Shown one piece after another: positions 6,890-64,000 of a stretch of DNA of 64,000 bases. How positions within the stretch are numbered: the first letter of the stretch is position 1; each line of letters starts with the position of its first letter. Location: assembly GCA_003483855.1 (NCBI GenBank), contig DMXP01000005.1, forward strand, positions 29,202 through 93,201. The letters are read 5' to 3'. A program made the translations under genes and the position numbers. The DNA is from Candidatus Yonathbacteria bacterium (lineage in GTDB: Bacteria > Patescibacteriota > Minisyncoccia > Phycocordibacterales > UBA1550). The notes beneath the pieces are model-generated. The model made no database searches and was not told where the DNA came from. It saw only the letters and a list, made by a program, of their open reading frames with translations.

Positions 6890-7771
6890 CTACTGCCAGG
6901 CTTCATGAAGATGCTCCGCAAGCTTACGCTTCAAGAGACCTCCGTCAATCAATTCCACTGAGTTTGACTTCGCCAAAGCTATCGCTCCTTGTGTAAAATA
7001 TGAAGTCGTTATTACAACTGCTCTTGTACACCCATAATGTACTCGCCCCGCCACCGCTTGCTGAACTGCTTTGTTATCGACAGGATCCTGATAACACTTC
7101 GCTTGAATAAGTATGCTCTCACCATTTTTATTCGCAATAACATCTGCGCCTTGATCACCAGAGCCACCTACTCTTTTACTTGCGTAACCCATCGCGCTAT
7201 AAAGTCGGGCGACAAGATTTTCAAATTCAATTCCACTTTTGCTCAACTCGCTCATGTTGTGCACTGCTTTTGTTCCAATACTTTCATTTAAATATCTATT
7301 CTCTTTTTTATCAATAAAATGTCTCAAGATTACAGAAAGTTCACCATAATCTTTTGTTGATATGGTGATATTTTTTTTATTAGCATTATCACGAAAGTCA
7401 TCGAGACGCTTCCACTCAAACTTGTACCCCCGATATTCCCAAGGTTTAATTTTGCCCTCCTTTCCAAACTGGTCAATGAAGCTGTTTACACTACTCTCAA
7501 AACCAGTATTTGCTATCTGCTCAAGGATACTATCAAGATGACGTTTCGTATTTTCCCTTCTTTTAAATATGTAAAACATATAGGCACCGACAGCTAGGAC
7601 AAGTACCGCAAGTGCAGGAAAAACGTAATGATTCATCTCAAACCAAAAACGATTAGTATCCACGTAGTATACGAATATGAGGTACGCGATACCAAACACA
7701 AATAGACCTGCAACCCCTCTCAAAAAACCATCTTCTTCATTTTCTTTTCTTCTGTAGCGTCTTTTATACAT
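6890..7771 (-). CDS. membrane-anchored restriction-endonuclease-like (Mrr-cat, PD-(D/E)xK) domain protein
   Basis: Two N-terminal TM helices (GVAGLFVFGIAYLIFVYYV and FPALAVLVLAVGAYMFYIF). The C-terminus FENLVARLYSAMGYASKRVGGSGDQGADVIANKNGESILIQAKCYQDPVDNKAVQQAVAGRVHYGCTRAVVITTSYFTQGAIALAKSNSVELIDG matches the Mrr N-terminal catalytic-domain pattern (GDGGID...QCK...ITTS.F). Confidence 0.7.
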   Translation of the reverse strand: MYKRRYRRKENEEDGFLRGVAGLFVFGIAYLIFVYYVDTNRFWFEMNHYVFPALAVLVLAVGAYMFYIFKRRENTKRHLDSILEQIANTGFESSVNSFIDQFGKEGKIKPWEYRGYKFEWKRLDDFRDNANKKNITISTKDYGELSVILRHFIDKKENRYLNESIGTKAVHNMSELSKSGIEFENLVARLYSAMGYASKRVGGSGDQGADVIANKNGESILIQAKCYQDPVDNKAVQQAVAGRVHYGCTRAVVITTSYFTQGAIALAKSNSVELIDGGLLKRKLAEHLHEAWQ

Positions 7772-9183: not shown

Positions 9184-9221
9184 ACCAATATGGTACTCCT
9201 CTTCCCTCAGATAAGCAACAT

Positions 9222-9635
9222 TTATTCCTCTGACTTCTTCACTTCTCTTTCCTTACTTCGTGTAGTTGAACCATACATAAAAACTCCTACAAGTGATGCA
9301 AGAGTACCCACGCCGATTATACCGCCAGCAATGGCATTCCCATAGATAGAGATGATTGCGGAAACAACAAGCCCAGCAACAGCAATAACAAAACCAAGAA
9401 TTTGACCCCATTTTGAACGAGCAATGTCGGAACTAATTACCTTTTGCTCAAGATCTTTTCTGTGCGCAGATTGGTCTTCTGCCATCTTGATTATTCTTTC
9501 AGCCGAACCAGGAACTACTTCTTCAAACTTGCGCAGAATGTCTGGATGAGGAAGCGGTCCAGAAAACGACTGCACAGAGTGCTGTTGAACTACTACACCA
9601 TTCTGATTATGCTGTCTTTGTAAGCCCTTGCTCAT
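9222..9635 (-). CDS. DUF2335-like membrane protein
   Basis: PHPDILRKFEEVVPGSAERIIKMAEDQSAHRKDLEQK followed by two TM helices resembles the DUF2335 predicted-membrane-protein pattern. It overlaps the upstream small gene by 29 nt. Confidence 0.55.
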   Translation of the reverse strand: MSKGLQRQHNQNGVVVQQHSVQSFSGPLPHPDILRKFEEVVPGSAERIIKMAEDQSAHRKDLEQKVISSDIARSKWGQILGFVIAVAGLVVSAIISIYGNAIAGGIIGVGTLASLVGVFMYGSTTRSKEREVKKSEE

Positions 9636-13896: not shown

Positions 13897-14760
13897 TTAA
13901 AATTCCTGACAGACTTGATCAACTTCTTCTACTACTCTTCCAATCTGTTCATCCGTAAAGCCAATTGATTTCAATGGAGCTGGATTATTCTTTAAATCGC
14001 GACACATCACAATTCCTTGTTCAAGTAAATTATTTTTGTCACTCTGACTAAGTGTAGAAAGAAATGTAAGCGGATGCACTCCCGTTTCCAAGATTAAATC
14101 CTGCAAATTGCCTTTTTCAGGATAGTCCCAGCCAATCACAGTGAGCCCAGAGCAATTCGCATATTGAATTGCATCACTCGTGAGCTTAGTGTTTGTAATG
14201 AGCCACCCCTCGTGAACTTTCTTTACCTCTCCTTCGTGTCTTTTATGCGCTTCATCGTGAGCTTTCTGCAAATCCATAAATCGCGCACGGACATAAAGCG
14301 CGACCTTCACGTCTGTTTTTATACCTTGCTGATTGTGGAACTTGCACTCTGCAAAAATATGCCTGTCGCCTTTTTCCATAAGCACGTCCACCTCGTGATC
14401 AACACAAAATCCCTGTAGAATTACACCTGTCTCTGCAGTGTAACCCTTTCCACGCAAAACTTCCGCGACAAATTTTTCAAATGGAAATCCGCTAGGCCCG
14501 AGCTCTAGCACTGCTTTCCTTAGCGAATAACGAATAGCGGCAGGATATTTTTTTTTCTTGAGAATAGAGTACGCGTGCTTGTAAATCTGCGAAGTCTTCA
14601 TCCCCTCGTGAAGCTCTGGGAGAATGTGCTCAACTATACGCTCTATAGTTTCATCGTCTGCACCAGAACGCGTAAGCGAACGACGAAGTTTATTAAGAGA
14701 AAATCGCTCACGCTCGCCAGTGCTTTTTATGACCCACACGTCATCTTGCTCTTTGTTCAT
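13897..14760 (-). CDS. ATP-cone domain fused to restriction-endonuclease-like PD-(D/E)xK domain protein
   Basis: N-terminus VWVIKSTGERERFSLNKLRRSLTRSGADDETIERIVEHI is an ATP-cone. The middle FEKFVAEVLRGKGYTAETGVILQGFCVDHEVDVLMEKGDRHIFAECKFHN is a D..EVD...ECK nuclease core. Start trimmed to MNKEQDD. Confidence 0.7.
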   Translation of the reverse strand: MNKEQDDVWVIKSTGERERFSLNKLRRSLTRSGADDETIERIVEHILPELHEGMKTSQIYKHAYSILKKKKYPAAIRYSLRKAVLELGPSGFPFEKFVAEVLRGKGYTAETGVILQGFCVDHEVDVLMEKGDRHIFAECKFHNQQGIKTDVKVALYVRARFMDLQKAHDEAHKRHEGEVKKVHEGWLITNTKLTSDAIQYANCSGLTVIGWDYPEKGNLQDLILETGVHPLTFLSTLSQSDKNNLLEQGIVMCRDLKNNPAPLKSIGFTDEQIGRVVEEVDQVCQEF

Positions 14761-14786
14761 ATTCCTTAGTTTAACACAATGAATAG

Positions 14787-14824
14787 GCAAAAGAAAAAGG
14801 TCGAGCTAAGATACTAGCTCGACC
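14787..14824 (-). terminator. rho-independent terminator
   Basis: Perfect 10-bp stem ggtcgagcta / tagctcgacc followed on the minus strand by tttttcttttgc. It lies about 320 nt downstream of the mnmA stop. Confidence 0.5.
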
Positions 14825-16336: not shown

Positions 16337-16372
16337 CCATTCCATGTTCTACATTCCAAATTCGACATTCTA
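16337..16372. repeat. degenerate NNcATTC heptamer array between mnmA and mltG
   Basis: ccattcc atgttc tacattc caaattc gacattc tatc. Confidence 0.3.
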
Positions 16373-57080: not shown

Positions 57081-57152
57081 GGCGTGGTAGCCAAGTGGTA
57101 AGGCAGTGGTTTGCAAAACCTCTACACGCGAGTTCGATTCTCGCCCACGCCT
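57081..57152 (+). tRNA. tRNA-Cys (anticodon GCA)
   Basis: GGCGTGG-TA-GCC...GGC-A-GTGGT-TTGCAAA-ACCTC-TACAC-GCGAG-TTCGATT-CTCGC-CCACGCC-T. The discriminator is U. Confidence 0.88.
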
Positions 57153-57418
57153 CAAAGAAAATTCTGTTAAGAATTTTCTTGGCGTGGGAGCAGGTAAACT
57201 GCTTTGCCTGCGTCGGGTCCTAAATTTCGCACAACTTTGTTGTGCGAAATCTTACGACATGATTTTTGAAGCGCAAAAATCAGAATCGAAGGGCGGAGCA
57301 TGTCGCTTGCGACAGCGAGCCGGGGTCGCGAACACTTTGTAGTTTTCAAGCGAAGCGAAGAAAAATACTTAGTGATTCGTGACCGAGAGCGCCCACGCCT
57401 CAAGAAACAATTAAATAC
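57153..57418 (+). repeat. hairpin-dense spacer between tRNA-Cys and tRNA-Leu carrying tRNA-flanking mosaic motifs
   Basis: gaaaattct-gtta-agaattttc (57161-57182), tttcgcacaac-ttt-gttgtgcgaaa (57226-57250), gcgagccggggtcgcgaacac, agcgaagcgaag and aaaaatacttagtgattcgtgacc are shared with 44709-44930, 46531-46610 and 57597-57704. Confidence 0.4.
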
Positions 57419-57499
57419 GTCCGGGTGGTGGAATGGTATACACAGGAGACTTAAAATTTCCCGCCGTAAGGCTTATGGGTTCGAGTCCCATCCCGGACA
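57419..57499 (+). tRNA. tRNA-Leu (anticodon TAA)
   Basis: GTCCGGG-TG-GTG...CAC-A-GGAGA-CTTAAAA-TTTCC, a 13-nt variable arm, ATGGG-TTCGAGT-CCCAT-CCCGGAC-A. Confidence 0.88.
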
Positions 57500-57720
57500 C
57501 AAAATTAACAAGCGGAAAGCGATAGCTTTTTGCGACTGTAATTTTGTAGTCCGGGATGGGACTCGAAAGCCGGAGGCGGGCACCTTGTGTAATCACAAGG
57601 TCGCTGAGGCGGGGTCGCGAGTACTTAGGAGCGAAGCGACTTAGTAACTCGGGCCAAGCTTAGGGCCAAGCCCCGAATTTGTTAATTCGAAATCTGCTGA
57701 TTCGTGACCGCGGACCATCC
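57500..57720 (+). repeat. post-tRNA-Leu noncoding repeats: inverted copy of the tRNA 3-prime end and the 45-bp segment shared with 43116-43160
   Basis: gtagtccgggatgggactcgaaagcc (57547-57572) is the reverse complement of the tRNA-Leu T-arm and acceptor. 57660-57704 ttagggccaagccccgaatttgttaattcgaaatctgctgattcg. Confidence 0.45.
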
Positions 57721-57807
57721 CTGTATTACCAAACAAGATTTGCCGAGCAAGCTAGTCCAATTGTAACAAACAAAAACACCCATAAGGGGTGTCTATGTTT
57801 ATATTTG

Positions 57808-57890
57808 TGCCGAGGAGAGGACTTGAACCTCCATGGGTTAACCCCGCTTGCTCCTAAGGCAAGTGCGTCTACCAATTTCGCCACCTCGGC
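57808..57890 (-). tRNA. tRNA-Leu (anticodon TAG)
   Basis: GCCGAGG...CTTGC-CTTAGGA-GCAAG, a long variable arm, GAGGTTCAAGTCCTC, TCCTCGGC-A. Confidence 0.88.
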
Positions 57891-57901
57891 ACTTCGCCCT
57901 G

Positions 57902-57974
57902 TGCACCCAGTAGGATTCGAACCTACGACCGTCTCGTTAAGAGCGAGCTGCTCTACCAACTGAGCTATGGGTGC
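57902..57974 (-). tRNA. tRNA-Lys (anticodon CTT)
   Basis: GCACCCA-TA-GCTC-AGTTGGTA-GAGC-A-GCTCG-CTCTTAA-CGAGA-CGGTC-GTAGG-TTCGAAT-CCTAC-TGGGTGC-A. There is one G-A mismatch at the top of the anticodon stem. Confidence 0.8.
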
Positions 57975-58028
57975 ATGTAGAAAGCATTATACACAAAAAC
58001 TGGAAAATTAAAAGACGTTTTTGTTTTG

Positions 58029-58113
58029 TGCTGGAGGGCGGGACTTGAACCCGCATAAGCTTACGCTCGTAGCGTTCTGAACACTATGTGTATACCAATT
58101 TCACCACTCCAGC
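58029..58113 (-). tRNA. tRNA-Leu (anticodon CAG)
   Basis: GCTGGAG...TAGTG-TTCAGAA-CGCTA, a long variable arm, GCGGGTTCAAGTCCCGC, CCTCCAGC-A. Confidence 0.88.
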
Positions 58114-58183: not shown

Positions 58184-58212
58184 TTGACTTTTTCATCAAA
58201 ATCCTATATAAT
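58184..58212 (+). promoter_or_regulatory. canonical sigma70-type promoter for the SPFH operon
   Basis: TTGACT (58184-58189), 17-nt spacer, TATAAT (58207-58212). SD aggagg lies 7 nt before the ATG at 58271. Confidence 0.55.
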
Positions 58213-58270: not shown

Positions 58271-59308
58271 ATGGACATAATAATCATAGTGCTTCTGTTG
58301 GTTGCAATTTGGTATCTCGCGCAACTGACAGTCTGGCTTTGTGCCAGCATTGGTATCTTTTGGATTACACCAAAAGAAGGAACCGCTGTTGCCATTATGC
58401 GCAACAAAAAATTCCATAAAATGTTGCTACGCTACACTGGTCACCACTTTAAAAGCCAGCGCAGCGCTTATAAACCGTCAGAAAACAATCTTGATGGATA
58501 CGAAATTGAGCAAGAAGAAATTTCTGAAGAAATTTCTATGTTTACTTCTATCGTCTTCCCTATCCGCGGAGTTTCGTGGATAGGCATCCCGCCATTTTAC
58601 AGCGTGTACAGTTACAAATTTAAATGGATGGATGACAGGTTCGTAATGCGTGATCCAGAAGAGATTGAGTGGATCCTCGTGCAAAAATATGTCTATGGCC
58701 TCGTTCTAGACAATATTGAGCTTGAAGGAGGAATCCCTTACACAATCAAACTTCTAATTACACTTCAGGTTACAAATCCGGCAAAGGCTTTATTTCGTGT
58801 TAAACGTTGGCTTGATGCAACAATGGAAAGAGTCTCTGGTTGGTCGCGAGATGAATTCTCCACTTTGTCCATAGATGACTTCGTTGTAGCAGAAGGCGAC
58901 AGGGAAATGGCGGAGTCAGAAGGTCATGCTGGGCCGAGACTTGAAAGAGCTCTCAAAAGGATAATGAATTCTGCAGAAAAAGACATAGAGCCAGAGTTTG
59001 GCATTGACATCAGCATTGTTCAGGTTGTAGAAATAGACCCTGCCAATGATGAGATGCGAAAAATCATTATCCAAAGAGAAGTAGCGAAGCAACAAGCTGC
59101 GGCGGTAATTGAAAAAGCAAAAGGCGAAGCGGAGGCGATAAACATTGTCAATGCTGCGGCGGAAAAAATGAGCGACAAAGCAATGATGCTCAAGGGATTC
59201 CACGCAATTGAAAACGCTGGAGCAAATGTAACGCTTATCGGGAAGGATCTTAATCTTCCCTCAATGCTTCAAATTCCAACATCTAACAAAGAAGGAGGTG
59301 CTAAATGA
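58271..59308 (+). CDS. SPFH/Band-7 (stomatin/prohibitin/flotillin-like) membrane protein
   Basis: N-terminal TM, SPFH core, and a C-terminal coiled coil EMRKIIIQREVAKQQAAAVIEKAKGEAEAINIVNAAAEK typical of the family. Confidence 0.8.
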   Translation: MDIIIIVLLLVAIWYLAQLTVWLCASIGIFWITPKEGTAVAIMRNKKFHKMLLRYTGHHFKSQRSAYKPSENNLDGYEIEQEEISEEISMFTSIVFPIRGVSWIGIPPFYSVYSYKFKWMDDRFVMRDPEEIEWILVQKYVYGLVLDNIELEGGIPYTIKLLITLQVTNPAKALFRVKRWLDATMERVSGWSRDEFSTLSIDDFVVAEGDREMAESEGHAGPRLERALKRIMNSAEKDIEPEFGIDISIVQVVEIDPANDEMRKIIIQREVAKQQAAAVIEKAKGEAEAINIVNAAAEKMSDKAMMLKGFHAIENAGANVTLIGKDLNLPSMLQIPTSNKEGGAK

Positions 59309-60138
59309 TTAACAGTTTGTTGTGGATATTGTTGATTCTGGTAATTGTGACTGCCTCTTTGGGGTCACTTTACTTTTTGAAATTCAACAAGTCAGCACCT
59401 GCAGTAGGTGGCAATTCATCGCAACCAAAACAACCAACCGCCATAGGCAAGATCTATGCTGGATGGGGTAAAATGACGCCAGGCTCAAAAAAAAGGGTTT
59501 GGCTCATCGTCCTTTCTGTCATAGCGATGTTGGTTGCCGCAGCGTCAATGCCAAAATCAATTGCAGCAGAAAGTTCCCCAGAAAATGTCTATCTCTGGGC
59601 GGGTATTATTGCCCTTTTGGGGGTTCACTTTGTCTGGGCAGTCTACTCGTTTAGCGAAAAAGTAAGCTGGATGGAAACAACAATTCTATACGGCATCATT
59701 TTCTTCTACGGGTTAACGTTGGTATTTCCGCAAGTTGTGCCGATACGTGATGCTTTATGGGGTCTAACAAATAAAGCATTAACGGATGCGCAGGAGGTAA
59801 TAGTATCCGCTAACGAAAAATACGGGGAAACACCTTCTGCTCCACAAGTACAGCAGTCAGCAAGCGCGCCAGCGGTGTATCAGCCACAGACACGAGTGAT
59901 TGAGATGACGGCCACCGAGGATGAATTCACGGAAGTGAAAATACCTTCGGGTGTACATTTCTCAATAGACTGTCCTGATGACGGGCTTGCAAAAGTCTTT
60001 CATCGTGATGCGCAACAAGGAATCATCTATGATTGCGCGCAGACTGTTGAGGTTGGCGAAAACCTGCACAACTTCCGTATTGGATTCTCTTCAAAAACGG
60101 AAACTCCTGTGTTGGTGCGAGTTCGCATCACATCGTAG
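59305..60138 (+). CDS. hypothetical 4-TM membrane protein with C-terminal soluble domain (SPFH operon partner)
   Basis: Overlaps the SPFH stop by 4 nt (ATGA). There is no NfeD-like serine protease signature. Confidence 0.55.
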   Translation: MINSLLWILLILVIVTASLGSLYFLKFNKSAPAVGGNSSQPKQPTAIGKIYAGWGKMTPGSKKRVWLIVLSVIAMLVAAASMPKSIAAESSPENVYLWAGIIALLGVHFVWAVYSFSEKVSWMETTILYGIIFFYGLTLVFPQVVPIRDALWGLTNKALTDAQEVIVSANEKYGETPSAPQVQQSASAPAVYQPQTRVIEMTATEDEFTEVKIPSGVHFSIDCPDDGLAKVFHRDAQQGIIYDCAQTVEVGENLHNFRIGFSSKTETPVLVRVRITS

Positions 60139-60160
60139 ACTTAATTTGCAATTCAACTCA

Positions 60161-60193
60161 AAAGCCCACAGAGCAATCTGTGGGCTTTTTTCT
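60161..60193 (+). terminator. rho-independent terminator of the SPFH operon
   Basis: aagcccacag-agcaat-ctgtgggctt followed by tttttc. Confidence 0.65.
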
Positions 60194-60283
60194 TTACCCG
60201 CTTAAGTTTTCTGCTTGCCTGTCCTGATTTCATTGAAACCCAGGTAGATAAGAAAATTTTGGCGGGTTTGTGTTTACCCAAAC

Positions 60284-60526
60284 CTATCTGGAGAACCCCA
60301 TCACAAACTCATTGATGAAGTTTAGTATCCCCCACACGCTGAGCATAATAGAAAGACCAATAACTCCCCACATCATATGTTTCTTTCCTTCTTGTTGAGC
60401 GTCCTCACTACTTTGGTCCTTTACAAACTTCATTACTCCATACAGAAAATATCCTACAGCCAAAGCCATAAGTAGCATCACTATCGGCTGAAGGATAGCG
60501 TCGTTAATTTTCTGAATGATGTTCAT
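60284..60526 (-). CDS. small two-TM membrane protein, paralog 1 of 5 (VirB2/TrbC-pilin-like topology)
   Basis: 80 aa. GYFLYGVMKFVKDQSSEDAQQEGKKHMMWGVIGLSIMLSVWGILNFI shares the FL(W/Y)...charged loop...WG(V/I)IG...(M)VS(I/M)WG(L/I)(V/L)NF pattern with the next four genes. Confidence 0.6.
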   Translation of the reverse strand: MNIIQKINDAILQPIVMLLMALAVGYFLYGVMKFVKDQSSEDAQQEGKKHMMWGVIGLSIMLSVWGILNFINEFVMGFSR

Positions 60527-60547
60527 TGTGAGCTTTTTTAACCTATA

Positions 60548-60895
60548 CTAGAGAGAAAGCGAAGGCGCGGTACGCGTAGTTGTGTCTAGCTTTGCTGAAG
60601 ATGTAAGAAAGTTTACTAGGCCCCAAATGGACACCATCACTGCAATACCGATAACACCGTATATCATTCCTCCTTGCTTTTCCTTGCGCGCCTCAGGGTC
60701 ACCAGCGGACATTACATAACCAAATACGTTCCAAAGAAAATACACAACAGCTCCAGCGAGAATAAGCACTGTTAATGTACTGAGTCCATCCTTCAAAAAT
60801 GCGATTAGCCCAGACACAGTGCTTGCCCCTTGCGCAATCTGCGCTCCTGCCACAAATGGTGTTAAAATGAAACCTAATGCAATAATCTTTTTCAT
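60548..60895 (-). CDS. small two-TM membrane protein, paralog 2 of 5 (signal peptide)
   Basis: MKKIIALGFILTPFVAGAQIA signal peptide, then VVYFLWNVFGYVMSAGDPEARKEKQGGMIYGVIGIAVMVSIWGLVNFL. Confidence 0.6.
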   Translation of the reverse strand: MKKIIALGFILTPFVAGAQIAQGASTVSGLIAFLKDGLSTLTVLILAGAVVYFLWNVFGYVMSAGDPEARKEKQGGMIYGVIGIAVMVSIWGLVNFLTSSAKLDTTTRTAPSLSL

Positions 60896-60977
60896 ATTTA
60901 TATTTATATTTATTAATTTACCTACGATAATTAAGGCCCGCTCGTATGCATATTATTATACGAAACTTGTGAAAAAA

Positions 60978-61265
60978 CTACAATGGTCGTTCAAACCGCT
61001 CCAAATTGATGCGGTCTGAAGTGTTTAATTTGAGCGAACCAGTGACAAAGTTTACCAACCCCCACATAGACACCATTACAGTGATAGCAATAATGCCCCA
61101 CACCGCTTGTTTCTTCACTTTTGCAAGCTCCTCTGGGTTGTCGTTGTTCTTGTACACCCCCATCATGTTCCATAGGAAAAAAACCACAGCCACACCCAGA
61201 AAAATAGAGAAAAACGGCGTTATGACCGTGTTAATGATGTAGTTAATAAATTCCTTGAAATTCAT
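60978..61265 (-). CDS. small two-TM membrane protein, paralog 3 of 5
   Basis: From MNFKEFINYII: VVFFLWNMMGVYKNNDNPEELAKVKKQAVWGIIAITVMVSMWGLVNFV. Confidence 0.55.
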   Translation of the reverse strand: MNFKEFINYIINTVITPFFSIFLGVAVVFFLWNMMGVYKNNDNPEELAKVKKQAVWGIIAITVMVSMWGLVNFVTGSLKLNTSDRINLERFERPL

Positions 61266-61270
61266 AATTA

Positions 61271-61762
61271 TTACTGGGTAAGCGTTGAAACAGTCTGCCC
61301 GATAATCTGCGCAAATCCCCACGCACCGAGGAGGATAAATGTGCCAATAATACTATACCAAAGGATATTTTTCGCTTCTGTTAATTTCGTGTCATTTCCT
61401 TGCGCGCTTACAAAAAGGAACCCAGAATAAATGAAGGCGAGGACGATAAATGGCATAAGCACCTGAACAGCGGTTTTTGTGACAGCGGTGGCAAACTGAG
61501 AGAACGTGGAATATTTTATTGGGTTTTGGAGTTTTGTGTTTGCGGAGAGGCCAGAAGTACCGCCTGAAGGCGCTGTACTTCCTGATGGCGCTGTACTTCC
61601 TGATATTGATGGAGCAGAATAACCGCTAGACATCACAGGGAGGGAACAATCAATACCAATGTAATCTGGATCGCCAGGAACGCACTGATCTGCCATTGCA
61701 AAAGAAGGGATTCCTATCAAAACAGCCAATAATGTCGCGCCAAATATTTTTTTCATATCCAT
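61271..61762 (-). CDS. small membrane protein, paralog 4 of 5 (signal peptide, Cys pair, Ser/Thr/Pro-rich linker)
   Basis: Signal peptide, DQCVPGDPDYIGIDC, then SGSTAPSGSTAPSGG encoded by a direct DNA repeat at ~61560-61610, then the C-terminal two-helix module FIYSGFLFVSAQGNDTKLTEAKNILWYSIIGTFILLGAWGFAQIIG. Confidence 0.55.
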   Translation of the reverse strand: MDMKKIFGATLLAVLIGIPSFAMADQCVPGDPDYIGIDCSLPVMSSGYSAPSISGSTAPSGSTAPSGGTSGLSANTKLQNPIKYSTFSQFATAVTKTAVQVLMPFIVLAFIYSGFLFVSAQGNDTKLTEAKNILWYSIIGTFILLGAWGFAQIIGQTVSTLTQ

Positions 61763-61777
61763 AGTATATCTTATTTA

Positions 61778-62179
61778 TTATTGAAACATAAACTGCATAA
61801 AGCTTGCCTGTTCGTCAGTCAAAAACGCAAAGAGTACTGTCTTGATAAGGATATACGCCCCGAGCATCACAAGGAACCCTACGCCAACACCTTGGAAAAT
61901 ACCGGTTGCCTTAGTCTTTGCTTCTTCTTTTTTAGGATTTAATATTAACAAAGCCCCAGCATACATAAAGCGAAGTGCAGCTAAAGGCACCGCAACAGCA
62001 AAGATTAAGAACTTTATAACATTATTAACTAGCATAATCAGATCATCAAATCCACAGTCTGGACCGTTGCATGGGATGCCAACTTGCGCCCACGCAAACA
62101 CTGGAACTGCAAAAAAAGTAAGCGACAAAATCCACGCTATTATTTTTTGATTTTTCATTACAGAATTTGTATTTTGCAT
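61778..62179 (-). CDS. small membrane protein, paralog 5 of 5 (signal peptide, CNGPDCGFDD)
   Basis: Signal peptide, CNGPDCGFDD, then ALRFMYAGALLILNPKKEEAKTKATGIFQGVGVGFLVMLGAYILI. Alternative start at MKNQKII. Confidence 0.55.
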   Translation of the reverse strand: MQNTNSVMKNQKIIAWILSLTFFAVPVFAWAQVGIPCNGPDCGFDDLIMLVNNVIKFLIFAVAVPLAALRFMYAGALLILNPKKEEAKTKATGIFQGVGVGFLVMLGAYILIKTVLFAFLTDEQASFMQFMFQ

Positions 62180-62207
62180 ATTTAGTTCGCTAATTATTCT
62201 ATCGCAT

Positions 62208-62263
62208 TACATTCTACATTCGACATTCTACATTCTACATTCTACATTCTACATTCAATATTC
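62208..62263. repeat. tandem heptamer array (tacattc)x8 upstream of the paralog array
   Basis: tacattc tacattc gacattc tacattc tacattc tacattc tacattc aatattc, read directly from the sequence. Confidence 0.6.
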
Positions 62264-62273
62264 TACCCTACCA

Positions 62274-63596
62274 TCATTGCTGTTGATAATCCTGCAGAAT
62301 CTTTGAAAGACTACCGTGCGCCACAGTGAGCGCCTCGTTCATACTGCTACGACCGGAGTTCACGCTCTCAATCATATTCATAAAAATAAGATTTGTTTCC
62401 GCAGATGATGGGTCGTACCAAGCGCGTGAGATGAGAGCGGAGTCATAAAAAACCGATAGTGCAGGGTCCGTTGGTCTAACAGAAATGAGGTCGCGTCGCA
62501 CCGGTGGAAGCTTTAATAGGTCGCTAATTCCAGTAATAACCCTGCTTCCAGAAAGAAGTGTTGTAGCGCGCAATGCCCCTGCTTGATTTTTCCCTGACGC
62601 CACAATTGCCACACCGTACATGCGACCAAACGTGAGTTTCTTTGCTGTCATGCCGACCTGTGGCACTACCGCCACATCAAAGTTTAAGTGTGGATTCATT
62701 TGTTTTATTAATTGATTTTCGCTCGCGTAGCCAAAGTAGAGAGCCAAGTCTCCCGACTGAAACATCGCGCTGGATTGAGGCAATGAGCGATTCCACGAGT
62801 ATGAATCCTTTTCTGGTTTCGAAAACTCTGTGTAAAAACGCATTGCTGTAACTACTGGATTTTCAATGTTTGCAGGACCCTGAATGGTGAGACCGGCTGA
62901 AAGCGAACCATTTTTGCTAATTACAACAGAGCTTCCCGCCTGCATTAAAAGGATAGAGAGGATTTCCTTTACGTTGGTAACATTTCTGTATTCACCGAAT
63001 GGTACGAGACTCTTTAAAATGCCTCCCGTTCTGCTACGAACAGTAATCTTTGGAACTAGATCATAAAATTCTGTCCAGTATTTTGGAGGCGCGGTGAGAA
63101 GCGCATTGGTAAAAATATCGCGGTTCCAATACATCACGATTGGGTCCACAATAAAAGGCAAGGCGACGATGCCTTCAGGACGGAGAAACATCTCCCCTTC
63201 TTCTATAAATGTATTTTTAAAATCACGTTCACGGATTGTTTCGTACGAAATTGGAGCAATCTTATTAAGATTTGCTATTAATTCGTCTTGTGGAAGTATT
63301 ACCATATCGGGGCCCTTGCCACTAGCAAGCGCTTCAACAAAATCCTTCGTAAAATTTTCGGGTCTTTTTTCTACATATTTTATGCTCACACTCCTCTCGT
63401 CACGAAAAATGTTTTCAATGAGTGTTTGCATTATTTCCTTAGGCACACTTCCCCATAGTATCACCTCACCATAATTGATATCTTTTTTACTTGTAGGAAG
63501 TGGGATTTTCCCAGAAAAACCAAGGAACCCGAGTATGAGCAAAACGACAAACACACCTGTGAGAACTATTTGAAAAATTTTTGGTCGCTGTGGCAT
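62274..63596 (-). CDS. extracellular solute-binding protein (ABC-type SBP family 1-like) with N-terminal TM anchor
   Basis: 440 aa. N-terminal TM, then ...NYGEVILWGSVPKEIMQTLIENIF...GKGPDMVILPQDELIANL... typical of MalE/UgpB-like binding proteins. Confidence 0.65.
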   Translation of the reverse strand: MPQRPKIFQIVLTGVFVVLLILGFLGFSGKIPLPTSKKDINYGEVILWGSVPKEIMQTLIENIFRDERSVSIKYVEKRPENFTKDFVEALASGKGPDMVILPQDELIANLNKIAPISYETIRERDFKNTFIEEGEMFLRPEGIVALPFIVDPIVMYWNRDIFTNALLTAPPKYWTEFYDLVPKITVRSRTGGILKSLVPFGEYRNVTNVKEILSILLMQAGSSVVISKNGSLSAGLTIQGPANIENPVVTAMRFYTEFSKPEKDSYSWNRSLPQSSAMFQSGDLALYFGYASENQLIKQMNPHLNFDVAVVPQVGMTAKKLTFGRMYGVAIVASGKNQAGALRATTLLSGSRVITGISDLLKLPPVRRDLISVRPTDPALSVFYDSALISRAWYDPSSAETNLIFMNMIESVNSGRSSMNEALTVAHGSLSKILQDYQQQ

Positions 63597-63611
63597 ATAG
63601 TTAGAATTATA

Positions 63612-64000
63612 TCAGGACTTGAACAATAGCAAACCATAATGGTGCTCGCCGACTGGGACTTCGTTTTTTAGAACAAAACCTTCCGCCTCGCAAAGTGCTA
63701 GAGCAGTGTCCTTTGTCACCACCATTTTCGGCGCTGGGCCCAAGTTGTTGAACGAGTCAGTCCAGTCTATCAGAAAAAGCTTGCCACCGACTTTCAAAAT
63801 ACGACTCGCCTCGCGAAGGAGCCCCGACTTGTCCTCCGCCTGGAAAAGAACGTTAGAGATAATTACCGCATCGCATACTCCGTCTTTTATTTTAGTTCCG
63901 CCGATATTTTCAATATTCCCCCATAGAAGCTCAACATTTTTTAGTCCGCGACGTGTCGCCTCGTCTTTAATATTAGTAAGAAAATCTTTTTGCACCTCCA
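63612..64000 (-). CDS. class I SAM-dependent methyltransferase, N-terminus outside window
   Basis: C-terminal 127 aa (CDAVIISNVLFQAEDKSGLLREASRILKVGGKLFLIDW) with post-motif II/III. The ORF continues beyond position 64000. Confidence 0.6.
   Translation of the reverse strand, partial: EVQKDFLTNIKDEATRRGLKNVELLWGNIENIGGTKIKDGVCDAVIISNVLFQAEDKSGLLREASRILKVGGKLFLIDWTDSFNNLGPAPKMVVTKDTALALCEAEGFVLKNEVPVGEHHYGLLLFKS

What the first reader, a model, noticed from the sequence alone, without database searches (positions are those of the whole stretch)
60284..63596. Tandem array of five divergent paralogous small two-helix membrane proteins downstream of a solute-binding protein gene
Five consecutive minus-strand genes of 80-163 aa all end in the same module. 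It has a hydrophobic helix with FL(W/Y), a charged loop (D/N-P-E-E/K...K-K), and a second helix with W-G-(V/I)-I-G...(M)-V-S-(I/M)-W-G-(L/I)-(V/L)-N-F. Their N-terminal parts are diversified: none, a signal peptide, Cys pairs CNGPDCGFDD or CVPGDPDYIGIDC, or a Ser/Thr/Pro-rich linker made by a direct DNA repeat. The topology and size resemble VirB2/TrbC-type conjugative pilins (T4SS_pilin). They are not type IV prepilins, since there is no G-FTLIE motif. Paralog arrays with hypervariable exposed regions suggest surface structures under diversifying selection, a host-interaction trait in episymbiotic Patescibacteria. There is a heptamer repeat at the array's upstream end. The whole block follows a tRNA cluster and the SPFH operon.
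Basis: partly seen in the sequence, partly recalled or inferred. Interest (0 to 1): 0.6.

Follow-up and report, generated by a model that had tools for sequence, protein, structure and literature searches.

The report
VirB2-like pilin operon with sugar-binding protein
Five neighbouring small membrane-protein genes in this groundwater Yonathbacteria (Patescibacteria) genome belong to the conjugative-pilin (VirB2-like) family, a kind of array already described in this phylum; here it sits in a widely conserved operon with a sugar-binding protein and a methyltransferase, away from any secretion machinery.

Summary
Five consecutive minus-strand genes (80, 115, 95, 163 and 133 aa) share a two-helix module. 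Four match Pfam PF18895 (T4SS_pilin) above the curated cut-off. The fifth is a divergent member whose orthologues also touch PF04956 (TrbC/VirB2). Arrays of divergent VirB2-like pilins are already published for Patescibacteria (Wang 2023; Quinonero-Coronel 2025), so the kind is known.

Three points are new here.
- The five genes are ancient orthologue groups, not recent or hypervariable copies. They keep their order in relatives whose binding protein is only 54% identical, and dN/dS is 0.02-0.28. Only the N-terminal extension of the fourth gene and the Cys loop of the fifth vary freely.
- The array is the distal part of a conserved operon: SAM methyltransferase, membrane-anchored MalE-like binding protein, then 4-8 pilin-like genes. 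I found it in 62 of 64 informative loci across Paceibacteria.
- No VirB4, VirB6 or VirD4 gene lies within about 84 kb here, nor a VirB4-sized gene within 7 kb in 80 related loci. Relatives encode VirB4 elsewhere, with separate pilin genes beside it.

The most likely function is a fixed hetero-oligomeric pilin assembly working with a glycan-binding partner. Dependence on a T4SS is inferred, not shown.

The parts
60160..60189 (.). Bidirectional intrinsic terminator. It has a 13-bp stem, GCCCACAG...CTGTGGGC, flanked by A and T runs. It closes both the array operon (minus strand) and the convergent SPFH operon (plus strand).
   Evidence: Terminator scan. Sequence. Rfam finds only terminator-like partial matches here.
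60284..60526 (-). g1, 80 aa. Pilin-like protein without a signal peptide: a short amphipathic N-terminus, helix 1, a charged loop and helix 2. It is the last gene of the operon.
   Evidence: PF18895 at E 1e-10, 41.9 bits. NF045849 at 40.8 bits against a cut-off of 40. Orthologues are 53-70% identical in L005-L008. dN/dS is 0.04-0.12.
60548..60895 (-). g2, 115 aa. It has a signal peptide followed by the pilin module. It is among the best conserved members and has its own promoter, so it is a candidate major subunit.
60923..60946 (-). Inverted repeat TACGA-N14-TCGTA just downstream of the internal promoter. It could be an operator or a 5' UTR hairpin.
   Evidence: Its position is conserved in the Yonathbacteria-level loci. 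Its function was not tested.
60955..60983 (-). Internal sigma-70-type promoter, TTGTAG-N17-TATAAT, upstream of g2-g1. The -35 box overlaps the g3 stop codon.
   Evidence: A TTGNNN-N16-18-TATA(A/C)T motif lies upstream of the g2-like gene in 21 of 22 Yonathbacteria-level loci, against a background of 0.16 hits per kb. In the 11 aligned loci TTG, GTTT and GTATAAT are invariant; the full GTTTCGTATAAT is in 10 of 11. It is one of only three exact TTG-N20-TATAAT matches in the 64-kb window.
60978..61265 (-). g3, 95 aa. Pilin-like protein without a signal peptide. Its C-terminal tail varies among relatives.
   Evidence: PF18895 at E 5.5e-11. The ATG start is supported by gene calls on identical contigs and by orthologues.
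61271..61762 (-). g4, 163 aa. It has a signal peptide, then a variable exposed extension (a Cys pair and a GSTAPS repeat), then a strongly conserved pilin core.
   Evidence: PF18895 at E 2.6e-7. The extension ranges from 0 to about 75 aa among relatives, while the core LQNPIKY...FAQIIG.TVSTLTQ is nearly invariant.
61563..61604 (-). 18-bp direct repeat, 2.3 copies, inside g4. It encodes GSTAPS-GSTAPS.
   Evidence: Tandem Repeats Finder, score 77.
61778..62179 (-). g5, 133 aa. It has a signal peptide, a conserved disulfide loop (GIPC-x(n)-CGFDDLI) and a divergent pilin core. It is the first gene of the array.
   Evidence: PF18895 reaches only E 0.0087 in the window. The g5 HMM hits g4 at 4e-8, and hhalign gives 82-87% to g1, g2 and g4. 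Of the 65 g5-position proteins scanned, 52 hit PF18895 and 24 hit PF04956 TrbC/VirB2. Cys37 is invariant and Cys42 is conserved in at least 90%.
62208..62266 (-). Heptamer tandem repeat, GAATGTA with seven full units (one unit carries a substitution). It is a strain-specific insertion at the junction between the binding-protein gene and g5.
   Evidence: The junction is a median of 4 nt long in 77 related loci, against 94 nt here. The copy number is the same in three assemblies.
62274..63596 (-). MalE-like (SBP_bac_1) solute-binding protein, 440 aa. It has an uncleaved N-terminal membrane anchor and no adjacent ABC permease or ATPase.
   Evidence: PF01547 at E 7e-15. The AlphaFold model has pLDDT 82. 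The best Foldseek matches are oligosaccharide-binding proteins at E 6e-21. It is followed by pilin-like genes in all 64 informative loci.
63612..64000 (-). 3' part of a class I SAM-dependent methyltransferase gene, the first gene of the operon. The window end cuts it; the full product is 174 aa on contig L001.
   Evidence: Methyltransf_11 and UbiE-like hits. Only generic NCBIfam hits were found. It lies directly upstream of the binding-protein gene in 71 of 80 loci, with a median gap of 10 nt.

Best explanation
Shown:
- The five genes encode VirB2/TrbC-superfamily (PF18895) pilin-like hairpin proteins.
- They form the distal part of a conserved Paceibacteria operon: SAM methyltransferase, membrane-anchored MalE-like binding protein, g5, g4, g3, then g2 and g1 behind an internal promoter.
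- Each position is an ancient orthologue group under purifying selection.

Inferred:
- The products assemble in fixed combination into one hetero-oligomeric envelope structure. This would be a short pilus or stalk of the conjugative-pilin type, built from the membrane pool of hairpins.
- g2 (with g1), having its own consensus promoter, would be the abundant subunit.
- g5 and g4 would be low-copy subunits. Their N-terminal disulfide loop and variable extension would face outward.
- The co-translated sugar-binding protein would act at the same site as a glycan-recognising partner, either as an adhesin or receptor for host surface polysaccharide, or as a substrate catcher.
- Assembly is most likely driven by the VirB4/TrsD/VirB3 system that relatives encode elsewhere, near oriC according to the literature.
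- The methyltransferase's target is unknown.
For: Family:
- Pfam PF18895 matches four of the five genes above the gathering score.
- NF045849 matches g1 at its cut-off.
- Of 65 g5-position proteins scanned, 52 hit PF18895 and 24 hit PF04956, the latter below its cut-off.

Fixed set of subunits:
- The best hit across genomes is always the gene at the same position, at 38-77% identity. This tracks the binding protein at 54-77%.
- dN/dS is 0.02-0.28.
- Elsewhere in the family, 2-8 modules are fused in one polypeptide behind a single signal peptide. The modules therefore work side by side.

Operon:
- All 64 loci with more than 3.5 kb downstream of the binding-protein gene carry pilin-like ORFs, and 62 of them carry 4-8.
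- The gap from the binding-protein stop to the first pilin start has a median of 4 nt. The gap from the methyltransferase to the binding protein has a median of 10 nt.
- The binding protein diverges down to 41% identity across these loci.

Other points:
- The internal promoter is conserved.
- The binding protein has a MalE-like oligosaccharide-binding fold.
- VirB4 is reported in six of the eight operon-carrying relatives listed in the published table.
- The literature reports essential VirB2-like pilin arrays in Patescibacteria T4SS loci.
Against: - No VirB4, VirB6 or VirD4 gene lies in the 64-kb window or in the roughly 20 kb of flanking sequence read on the same contig.
- No VirB4-sized gene lies within 7 kb of the operon in any of 80 loci.
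- In Nomurabacteria GW2011_GWC2_42_20, which carries this operon, the VirB4 locus has its own two PF18895 genes. The array is therefore not needed to supply that machine with a pilin.
- No window protein hits PF04956, and none hits any solved pilin by sequence.
- No filament has ever been observed for this family.
- The role proposed for the binding protein is pure inference.
Confidence: 0.5

Rival explanations
1. A T4SS-independent membrane complex. The five hairpins (ten transmembrane helices) and the anchored binding protein would form a dedicated envelope module. It could be an unconventional uptake or sensing device for host-derived oligosaccharides, or a membrane scaffold. On this reading 'pilin' reflects shared ancestry only.
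For: - The operon is never next to VirB4 in 80 loci. Its neighbourhood is housekeeping genes: gyrA upstream, IF-2 and RbfA beyond.
- The T4SS locus of a relative has its own PF18895 genes.
- The binding protein has no ABC permease or ATPase partner nearby, yet is tightly coupled to the hairpin genes.
- Poly-module fusions of up to 8 modules, about 16 helices, look like polytopic membrane proteins.
- In L060 a subtilisin-like domain is fused to a g5-type module, as if the module were an anchor.
Against: - The family's only functional context elsewhere is T4SS and ICE gene clusters: Pfam and NCBIfam names, arrays within T4SS loci, and essentiality together with the T4SS in S. epibionticum.
- No transporter precedent exists for two-helix subunits working with a MalE-like protein.
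- No energy-coupling component is encoded in the operon.
Confidence: 0.27
2. An antigenic or host-range variation cassette. The paralogues would be interchangeable alternative major pilins, diversified to evade or match different hosts, as suggested for the VirB2 paralogues of Bartonella and Anaplasma.
For: - Identity between paralogues is low, 19-46%.
- The g4 N-terminal extension and the g5 loop vary in length and sequence.
- g5 or g4 are locally replaced between close relatives. Window against L009: g5 is 67% identical with dS 1.95, while the flanking genes are 94-98% identical with dS 0.3-0.55.
- The published survey of these arrays offers this interpretation.
Against: - One-to-one orthology of all five positions holds across deep divergence.
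- Every gene has dN/dS below 0.3.
- There are no near-identical copies and no silent cassettes.
- Gene order is conserved: g5-like first, then g4-like, with g2-like and g1-like last.
- Fused multi-module proteins exist.
Confidence: 0.1
3. Unrelated small membrane proteins, such as holins, bacteriocin immunity proteins or toxin-antitoxin-like peptides. The pilin match would then be an artefact of hydrophobic composition.
For: - The proteins are small and have two helices.
- Foldseek gives no specific PDB match.
- Weak sub-threshold hits to assorted membrane families appear in Pfam.
Against: - PF18895 hits are above the curated cut-off and cover the whole 71-position model.
- PHROGs returns no holin; the only hit is one 0.005 match to a generic membrane protein.
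- No lysin, toxin or bacteriocin gene lies nearby.
- The family has 29,157 cluster representatives with a specific conserved motif.
Confidence: 0.03

Closest known systems
VirB2-like pilin arrays of Patescibacteria: the essential pilin series inside the Southlakia epibionticum T4SS cluster (SEML1_0006-0019; Wang et al. 2023), and the 441 arrays of 2-11 genes surveyed by Quinonero-Coronel et al. 2025
   Same: Both belong to PF18895. Both are tandem arrangements of 2-11 sequence-divergent but structurally alike two-helix proteins. The published average identity is 25%; here it is 19-46%. Both occur on the chromosome of a monoderm ultrasmall bacterium that lacks a relaxase context.
   Different: - The S. 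epibionticum array lies inside the T4SS locus. This one lies more than 10-60 kb from any T4SS gene, in a housekeeping neighbourhood.
- This array is fused into an operon with a MalE-like binding protein and a methyltransferase. Neither partner is mentioned in those papers.
- The published survey reports arrays mainly in Microgenomatia and Saccharimonadia. Its Table S3 rows for two genomes that carry this operon do not list these genes.
- The members here are stable orthologue groups rather than lineage-specific amplifications.
Conjugative pilins: TrbC/VirB2 (PF04956), F-pilin TraA, and the archaeal Ced/Ted pilins (for example PDB 8dfu)
   Different: No window protein reaches PF04956. There is no sequence match to any solved pilin. 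Two members lack a signal peptide. There is no neighbouring VirB4, VirB6 or VirB5, and no cyclase or acetylase. No evidence of polymerisation exists.
Small pilin-like proteins of monoderm ICEs: NCBIfam NF045849 (Mbov_0395 family, Mycoplasma ICE). One source also labels a close g2 homologue TIGR03745.
   Same: g1 aligns end to end with the 80-position NF045849 model at the curated cut-off. A UniRef entry for a close g2 homologue (same 90%-identity cluster) carries the TIGR03745 ICE membrane-protein name.
   Different: Those proteins are single-copy genes inside mobile conjugative elements. Here there are five copies in a fixed chromosomal operon, with no integrase, relaxase or coupling protein nearby.
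VirB2 paralogue clusters of Bartonella and Anaplasma
   Same: Both have several tandem VirB2-type genes with divergent exposed parts.
   Different: Those clusters are recent, lineage-specific amplifications beside the virB operon and are interpreted as antigenic variation. Here the paralogues are ancient, one-to-one orthologous and under purifying selection.
MalE/UgpB-type carbohydrate-binding proteins of ABC importers
   Same: The binding protein hits PF01547 and PF13416. Its predicted fold matches maltodextrin, cellodextrin, sucrose and manno-oligosaccharide binding proteins at TM-scores of 0.6-0.8.
   Different: It has an N-terminal transmembrane anchor rather than a lipobox or a cleaved signal. 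No permease or ATPase gene lies in the operon or within the roughly 84 kb examined. Its constant partners are pilin-like hairpins.

Membership tests
PF18895 T4SS_pilin (VirB2-like pilins of CPR and monoderm elements) | Pfam HMM score at or above the gathering cut-off of 26.6 bits | tested here: met
   g1 scores 41.9, g2 34.0, g3 42.8 and g4 31.0 bits. g5 scores 16.5 bits, below the cut-off. However, 52 of the 65 g5-position proteins scanned hit the model (best E 1e-15), and g5 is linked to g4, g1 and g2 by HMM and hhalign.
PF18895 T4SS_pilin (VirB2-like pilins of CPR and monoderm elements) | Architecture: an optional signal peptide, then two hydrophobic helices joined by a short charged loop, about 70-80 aa when mature | tested here: met
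   Hydropathy segments. The AlphaFold model of g2 has helices 27-62 and 67-100 with block-mean pLDDT 84-94 over residues 41-100.
Conjugative pilin superfamily (TrbC/VirB2 PF04956, TraA, Ced/Ted pilins) | Detectable sequence relationship to PF04956 or to solved pilins | tested here: inconclusive
   No PF04956 hit at E below 1 for the window proteins. No solved pilin was found by profile search of PDB sequences. Of the 65 g5-position proteins scanned, 24 hit PF04956 at E down to 9e-6, all below the cut-off.
Conjugative pilin superfamily (TrbC/VirB2 PF04956, TraA, Ced/Ted pilins) | Fold superposable on a solved conjugative pilin | tested here: inconclusive
Type IV secretion system (functional membership) | Genomic linkage to VirB4 and other machinery genes, conventionally within about 20 CDS | tested here: not met
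   Pfam scans of 29 large ORFs of the window show no T4SS gene. Nor do the precomputed Pfam calls for 10 kb beyond one end and about 6.5 kb beyond the other. No VirB4-sized gene lies in the 7-kb flanks of 80 related loci.
Type IV secretion system (functional membership) | VirB4, VirB3 and TrsD present somewhere in the same genome | not testable with these tools
   Only about 84 kb of this genome could be read. By proxy, the published Table S1 marks VirB4 as present in six of the eight operon-carrying relatives it lists. Table S3 places VirB4, TrsD and VirB3 elsewhere in two of them.
Type IV secretion system (functional membership) | Subunits polymerise into an extracellular filament | not testable with these tools
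   This needs microscopy or surface proteomics.
Patescibacterial VirB2 arrays (Quinonero-Coronel et al. 2025) | Two or more PF18895 or VirB2-type genes in tandem, or separated by one gene, with low mutual identity | tested here: met
   Five adjacent genes with 19-46% pairwise identity. Definition taken.
Type IV (T4P) prepilins | Class III signal peptide: a positively charged leader, then G followed by F/M-T/S-L-I/L-E, then a hydrophobic helix | tested here: not met
   A regular-expression search of the first 45 residues of all five proteins was negative.
ABC-importer substrate-binding proteins (for the upstream gene) | SBP_bac_1 domain and a two-lobe binding fold | tested here: met
   PF01547 at E 7e-15 and PF13416 at E 2e-10. 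Foldseek E 6e-21 to sugar-binding proteins.
ABC-importer substrate-binding proteins (for the upstream gene) | Cognate permease and ATPase genes in the same operon or neighbourhood | tested here: not met
   The operon holds only the methyltransferase, the binding protein and the pilin-like genes in the 80 loci. The only ABC genes in the window are a MacB/FtsX-type pair 36 kb away.
Holins and bacteriocin immunity proteins | A match to a phage holin or immunity family, or linkage to a lysin or toxin gene | tested here: not met
   PHROGs returns no holin hit. Pfam and NCBIfam give none. The neighbouring genes are housekeeping.

The most novel reading that the evidence does not exclude
The operon would encode a self-contained nutrient-capture or host-recognition organelle peculiar to Paceibacteria. 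A defined hetero-oligomer of five VirB2-derived subunits would form a conduit or stalk. A membrane-anchored MalE-like protein would load or dock host-derived oligosaccharides or cell-wall fragments onto it. This would be a substrate-binding protein coupled to a pilin-type channel instead of an ABC permease. The T4SS ATPase might power it in trans, or it might work without one. The mode of five subunits could reflect the pentameric layers of conjugative pili. I consider that link weak, because relatives have 4-8 genes.
Probability: 0.12. Interest if true: 0.8.

Novelty: new variant of a known kind. Interest (0 to 1): 0.42.

Why it matters
Patescibacteria lack most biosynthesis and must take building blocks from hosts. 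How they do so is an open question. Reviews speculate that their T4SS and its VirB2-like pilins form an uptake or signalling conduit.

This locus does not change the basic picture, because such pilin arrays are known. It adds three testable facts for the largest class, Paceibacteria:
- The pilin set is a fixed complement of ancient, distinct subunits rather than a variable cassette.
- It is genetically coupled to a sugar-binding protein and a methyltransferase, not to the secretion ATPases.
- g2 and g1 have a dedicated conserved promoter.

The link to the binding protein gives a concrete handle for experiments: its ligand and its partner contacts. These could test whether these structures recognise or import host glycans.

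The published survey's table does not list this array for two genomes that carry it. Pilin arrays in Paceibacteria may therefore be under-counted.

Tried and rejected
- **Profile search of PDB sequences with the five-paralogue core.** It returned only chance membrane hits.
- **Generic promoter scan of 59900-64000.** The count was not above shuffled controls. The real conserved promoter was missed because its -35 box, TTGTAG, matches only 3 of 6 consensus positions. Comparative alignment found it.
- **Phase variation by the heptamer repeat.** The copy number is 7 in the window and in two independent assemblies. Two short Logan contigs simply end inside the repeat. There is no support for slippage.
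- **A specially conserved membrane anchor on the binding protein, as a sign of intramembrane contacts.** Across 81 sequences the anchor is no better conserved than the rest (0.49 against 0.41-0.69). Only F8, F16, G23 and F27 reach 90% or more. I dropped this as an argument.
- **Locating virB4 in this genome.** Only the window plus about 10 kb on one side and 6.5 kb on the other could be read. The stored copy of the published Table S3 stops before the Yonathbacteria rows.
- **Rfam search of the region.** It found nothing beyond terminator-like fragments.
- **Large ORFs just downstream of the array in six loci, checked by eye as possible VirB4 genes.** They are RpoB, ValRS, a spermidine-synthase-like membrane protein, secreted low-complexity proteins and a protease-pilin fusion.
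- **More specific naming of the methyltransferase.** NCBIfam gave only generic class I hits far below their cut-offs.

Full report
**1. The observation**

The region 60284-63596 carries six co-directional minus-strand genes.
- g1 60284-60526, 80 aa
- g2 60548-60895, 115 aa
- g3 60978-61265, 95 aa
- g4 61271-61762, 163 aa
- g5 61778-62179, 133 aa
- a 440-aa solute-binding protein gene at 62274-63596

The mechanical ORF for g3 starts at a GTG at 61322 and overlaps g4. Gene calls on identical metagenome contigs give 95 aa, and the orthologues agree.

The five small proteins align over a C-terminal module of about 70-80 aa. Pairwise BLASTP identities are 19-46%, with E from 2e-19 to 3e-3. Profile-profile probabilities are 94-99% among g1-g4 and 82-87% for g5 against g1, g2 and g4. 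The g3-g5 pair is not detected directly. An HMM of g5 orthologues hits the window's g4 at 4e-8.

The rest of the description also holds.
- g2, g4 and g5 have signal-peptide-like N-termini. g1 and g3 have none.
- The Cys pairs are CNGPDC in g5 and CVPGDPDYIGIDC in g4.
- An 18-bp direct repeat at 61563-61604 encodes GSTAPS twice.
- A GAATGTA heptamer repeat lies at 62208-62266, between the binding-protein gene and g5.
- A cluster of five tRNA genes lies at 57081-58113.
- A convergent SPFH gene pair lies at 58271-60138.
- A 13-bp-stem bidirectional terminator at 60160-60189 closes both operons.

g4 and g5 have degenerate versions.

**2. The family**

- Pfam PF18895 (T4SS_pilin) matches g1-g4 over essentially the whole 71-position model, at 31-43 bits against a gathering score of 26.6. 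g5 reaches only 16.5 bits.
- NCBIfam NF045849, the Mbov_0395 family of pilin-like conjugal transfer proteins from Mycoplasma ICEs, aligns end to end with g1 at 40.8 bits against a cut-off of 40.
- Of 65 g5-position proteins scanned singly (the window's g5 and 64 orthologues), 52 hit PF18895 (best E 1e-15). Twenty-four also hit PF04956, the classical TrbC/VirB2 family (best E 9e-6, all below its cut-off). The first gene of the array thus links the group to the classical family.
- An AlphaFold model of g2, built with a 72-sequence alignment, shows a signal-peptide helix and then a long helical hairpin (H27-62, H67-100), with block-mean pLDDT 84-94 over residues 41-100.
- Foldseek against the PDB found nothing significant, which is expected for a bare hairpin.
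- A profile search of PDB sequences found no pilin.
- PHROGs gave no holin or other phage family.
- None of the five has a type IV prepilin motif.
- The family is large. An exhaustive HMMER search found 29,157 cluster representatives at E of 1e-3 or better.

**3. What is already published**

- Wang et al. [quoted passage not shown]
- Quinonero-Coronel et al. 2025 searched 3,035 Patescibacteria genomes with PF18895 and PF04956, among other profiles. They found VirB2-like pilins in 1,948 assemblies and 441 arrays of 2-11 pilin genes. Mean identity within arrays was 25%. They interpreted the arrays by analogy with the VirB2 paralogues of Bartonella and Anaplasma.
- A 2025 review calls these arrays the remarkable feature of the patescibacterial T4SS and speculates about a pilus conduit.

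**4. Organism and neighbourhood**

- The binding protein's closest relatives are from Candidatus Yonathbacteria.
- The exact proteins are in GenBank as HAS84886-HAS84891, locus tags DCS23_02330 to DCS23_02355, from a Yonathbacteria MAG. All are annotated 'hypothetical protein'.
- The window matches a 198-kb groundwater contig with a single mismatch over the 3.9 kb compared.
- Pfam scans of 29 large ORFs of the window show only housekeeping and envelope genes: RpoB, AlaRS, LeuRS, ATP synthase, ClpB, IF-2 and others. There is no VirB4, VirB6 or VirD4.
- The 10 kb beyond the window end carries the methyltransferase gene, gyrA, an S1-domain gene, a sigma factor and a helicase.
- The 6.5 kb before the window start carries rpoC, dnaG, sigA, a DsbA-like gene and znuA.
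- About 84 kb around the array is therefore free of T4SS machinery.

**5. The array is a fixed set of ancient subunits**

Four contigs carry binding proteins only 54-77% identical to the window's. All four have the same order: methyltransferase, binding protein, five pilin-like genes, then the convergent SPFH pair.

The best cross-genome hit of each window gene is always the gene at the same position. Identities are 38-77%, similar to the binding protein (54-77%) and the methyltransferase (68-79%).

Nei-Gojobori dN/dS against five relatives is 0.02-0.14 for g1-g3 and 0.05-0.28 for g4 and g5. The binding protein and methyltransferase give 0.05-0.09.

Free variation is confined to three things.
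- The mature N-terminal extension of g4 ranges from 0 to about 75 aa. It is rich in low-complexity sequence, and its Cys residues are not conserved.
- The loop between the two conserved cysteines of g5 ranges from 4 to about 21 residues.
- g5 or g4 is occasionally replaced by a divergent allele between close relatives. Against L009, g5 is 67% identical with dS 1.95, while the flanking genes are 94-98% identical with dS 0.3-0.55.

The claim of diversifying selection therefore fails for the array as a whole. It survives only for the exposed ends of the first two genes.

Fused proteins support the same view. The top hits of the exhaustive search are single polypeptides with 2-8 tandem modules behind one signal peptide. 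P0257 has three modules and is named 'pilin' in a Paceibacteria MAG. P0258 has seven and P0259 has eight. Modules that can be fused head to tail must work side by side, with both termini on the same face.

**6. A conserved operon with a binding protein and a methyltransferase**

A scan of one genome per species with the binding-protein alignment matched 287 relatives. The best 80 were kept: Yonath-, Nomura-, Zambryski-, Taylor- and Campbellbacteria and other Paceibacteria, with 94% down to 41% identity.

I searched all ORFs of these loci with position-specific HMMs.
- All 64 loci with more than 3.5 kb downstream of the binding-protein gene carry pilin-like ORFs on the same strand. Sixty-two of them have 4-8, with a mode of 5.
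- The first ORF is usually g5-like, followed by a g4-like one. The last two are typically g2-like and g1-like.
- The gap from the binding-protein stop to the first pilin start has a median of 4 nt.
- The methyltransferase gene precedes the binding-protein gene in 71 of 80 loci, with a median gap of 10 nt.

In the window this junction is 94 nt, because of the heptamer repeat. Other strains carry insertions of 609 nt and 880 nt at the same spot.

The binding protein has an uncleaved N-terminal anchor. Its predicted MalE-type fold (pLDDT 82) best matches maltodextrin, sucrose, cellodextrin and manno-oligosaccharide binding proteins, at Foldseek E about 1e-20 and 15-20% identity. No ABC permease or ATPase accompanies it.

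The methyltransferase is a generic class I SAM enzyme.

I found no paper that mentions this linkage.

**7. Regulation**

Comparative alignment shows a promoter, TTGTAG-N17-TATAAT, at 60983-60955 on the minus strand. Its -35 box overlaps the g3 stop codon.
- A TTGNNN-N16-18-TATA(A/C)T motif lies upstream of the g2-like gene in 21 of 22 Yonathbacteria-level loci. The background is 0.16 hits per kb.
- In the 11 aligned loci TTG, GTTT and GTATAAT are invariant, and the full GTTTCGTATAAT occurs in 10 of 11.
- It is one of only three exact TTG-N20-TATAAT sites in the 64-kb window.
- An inverted repeat, TACGA-N14-TCGTA (60946-60923), follows it.

g2 and g1 can thus be transcribed separately and probably more strongly. 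Together with g2's strong sequence conservation, this makes it my candidate for the major subunit. This is inference.

The operon's own promoter and a strong terminator after gyrA lie just outside the window.

**8. Relation to the T4SS**

Table S1 of the published survey marks VirB4 as present in six of the eight operon-carrying relatives it lists. The two absences are in draft MAGs.

Table S3 gives gene indices for two of these genomes.
- Nomurabacteria GW2011_GWC2_42_20, whose contig is locus L015, has VirB3, TrsD and VirB4 at indices 600-602. Two PF18895 genes lie at 595 and 604, beside the machinery.
- Parcubacteria GW2011_GWA1_47_8, locus L029, has VirB4, TrsD and VirB3 at 699-701.

In neither genome are the five operon genes listed. 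Yet four of the five in each locus hit PF18895 at 1e-6 to 3e-9 with 70% or more of the model covered, and g5 hits more weakly.

Two conclusions follow. A T4SS exists in this lineage and has pilin genes of its own. And the operon studied here is a second, unlinked pilin locus that the survey apparently did not capture, at least in those two genomes.

**9. Interpretation**

Shown:
- The five proteins belong to the VirB2-like family.
- The set is fixed, ancient and under purifying selection.
- It is coupled in an operon to a MalE-like protein and a methyltransferase.
- An internal promoter precedes g2 and g1.
- No machinery genes lie nearby.

Inferred:
- The five products build one hetero-oligomeric envelope structure of the conjugative-pilin type.
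- g5 and g4 present variable, disulfide-stabilised ends to the outside. A DsbA-like gene is present 7 kb before the window.
- The sugar-binding protein acts with the structure as a glycan receptor, adhesin or substrate catcher.
- The distant VirB4 system assembles it.

I put this at about 0.5.

The main rival, at about 0.27, is a T4SS-independent membrane complex of the hairpins with the binding protein. Several facts favour it: the complete lack of linkage to VirB4, the T4SS locus having its own pilins, the orphan status of the binding protein, the polytopic look of the fused forms, and a protease-pilin fusion in L060.

The antigenic-variation reading (about 0.1) is contradicted by orthology and by dN/dS. 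A holin or immunity role (about 0.03) has no support.

**10. Verdict**

The object belongs to a kind described in 2023-2025.

It differs from the published examples in three ways: its operon partners, its separation from the T4SS locus, and the stable orthology of its members. I therefore class it as a new variant of a known kind, of moderate interest.

The most novel reading still open is a substrate-binding protein working with a pilin-derived conduit in place of an ABC permease. It would be important if true, but it rests on gene linkage alone.

Noticed in passing
window 60955-60983 and 60923-60946 (minus strand): A conserved internal promoter, TTGTAG-N17-TATAAT, overlaps the g3 stop codon. 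An inverted repeat, TACGA-N14-TCGTA, follows it. The promoter motif is found in 21 of 22 Yonathbacteria-level loci, and the repeat keeps its position in the aligned loci. Whether the repeat is an operator or a 5' UTR hairpin is unknown.
   Followed up: partly
window 62208-62266 and 16338-16370; L001 about 9190-9245 and 9425-9455 (just beyond the window end): Tandem repeats of period 7 or 14, built on GAATnnn units, recur in intergenic spacers of this genome: GAATGTA seven times; GAATTGA-like units after gyrA; and the reverse-complement form TTCCCCA before the methyltransferase gene. The copy number at 62208-62266 is identical in three assemblies. Two short Logan contigs end inside the repeat.
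   Followed up: partly
L010 1936-2544; L011 8324-9203; window 62180-62273: The junction between the binding-protein gene and g5 is normally 0-18 nt. It is an insertion hotspot. L010 has 609 nt inserted. L011 has 880 nt holding a small gene flanked by palindromic repeats of about 45 nt, possibly a miniature mobile element. The window has the heptamer repeat.
   Followed up: no
P0257, P0258, P0259, P0260, P0262, P0270: Some proteins have 2-8 tandem copies of the pilin module in one chain behind a single signal peptide ('poly-pilins'). At least one comes from a Paceibacteria MAG and is named 'pilin' by NCBI. None of the long ORFs in the 80 arrays linked to the binding protein has more than one module.
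   Followed up: partly
L060 4722-6347: In one relative the first array position is a 541-aa protein. A subtilisin-like (S8) domain is fused N-terminally to a g5-type module that keeps the CxxxC-GFNDLI motif.
   Followed up: no
L009 8370-8786 against window 61778-62179; L010 3063-3566 against window 61271-61762: Divergence is mosaic. Between close relatives, g5 or g4 is much more diverged, at synonymous sites as well, than the flanking genes. This suggests allele replacement by recombination.
   Followed up: partly
Published Table S3 of PMC12102498 against loci L015 and L029: The survey's table lists no PF18895 protein from this operon for GCA_000998425.1 or GCA_000996605.1. Yet four of the five ORFs in each locus hit PF18895 at 1e-6 to 3e-9, and g5 hits more weakly. 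Arrays in Paceibacteria may be under-counted. The reason, whether annotation or thresholds, is unknown.
   Followed up: partly
L010 and L014 (both from MAG UBA12043); L015: One MAG carries two versions of the operon, with binding proteins 88% and 67% identical to the window's. L014 is 100% identical over 12.9 kb to Nomurabacteria GW2011_GWC2_42_20 (L015). The bin is probably mixed.
   Followed up: partly
window 6890-7771 and 13897-14790: There are two Mrr-type restriction endonuclease domain genes. The second is fused to an ATP-cone and an AF1548-like C-terminal domain.
   Followed up: no
window 58184-58212 and 58271-60138: The convergent SPFH (Band 7) gene and its overlapping 277-aa membrane-protein partner have one of the three consensus promoters in the window. 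They share the terminator with the array. The pair is conserved downstream of the array at Yonathbacteria level only.
   Followed up: no
L089 20110-20817 (about 7 kb before the window start): A DsbA/thioredoxin-like gene lies here. It fits disulfide formation in exported proteins such as g5, which has an invariant Cys37 and a conserved Cys42.
   Followed up: no
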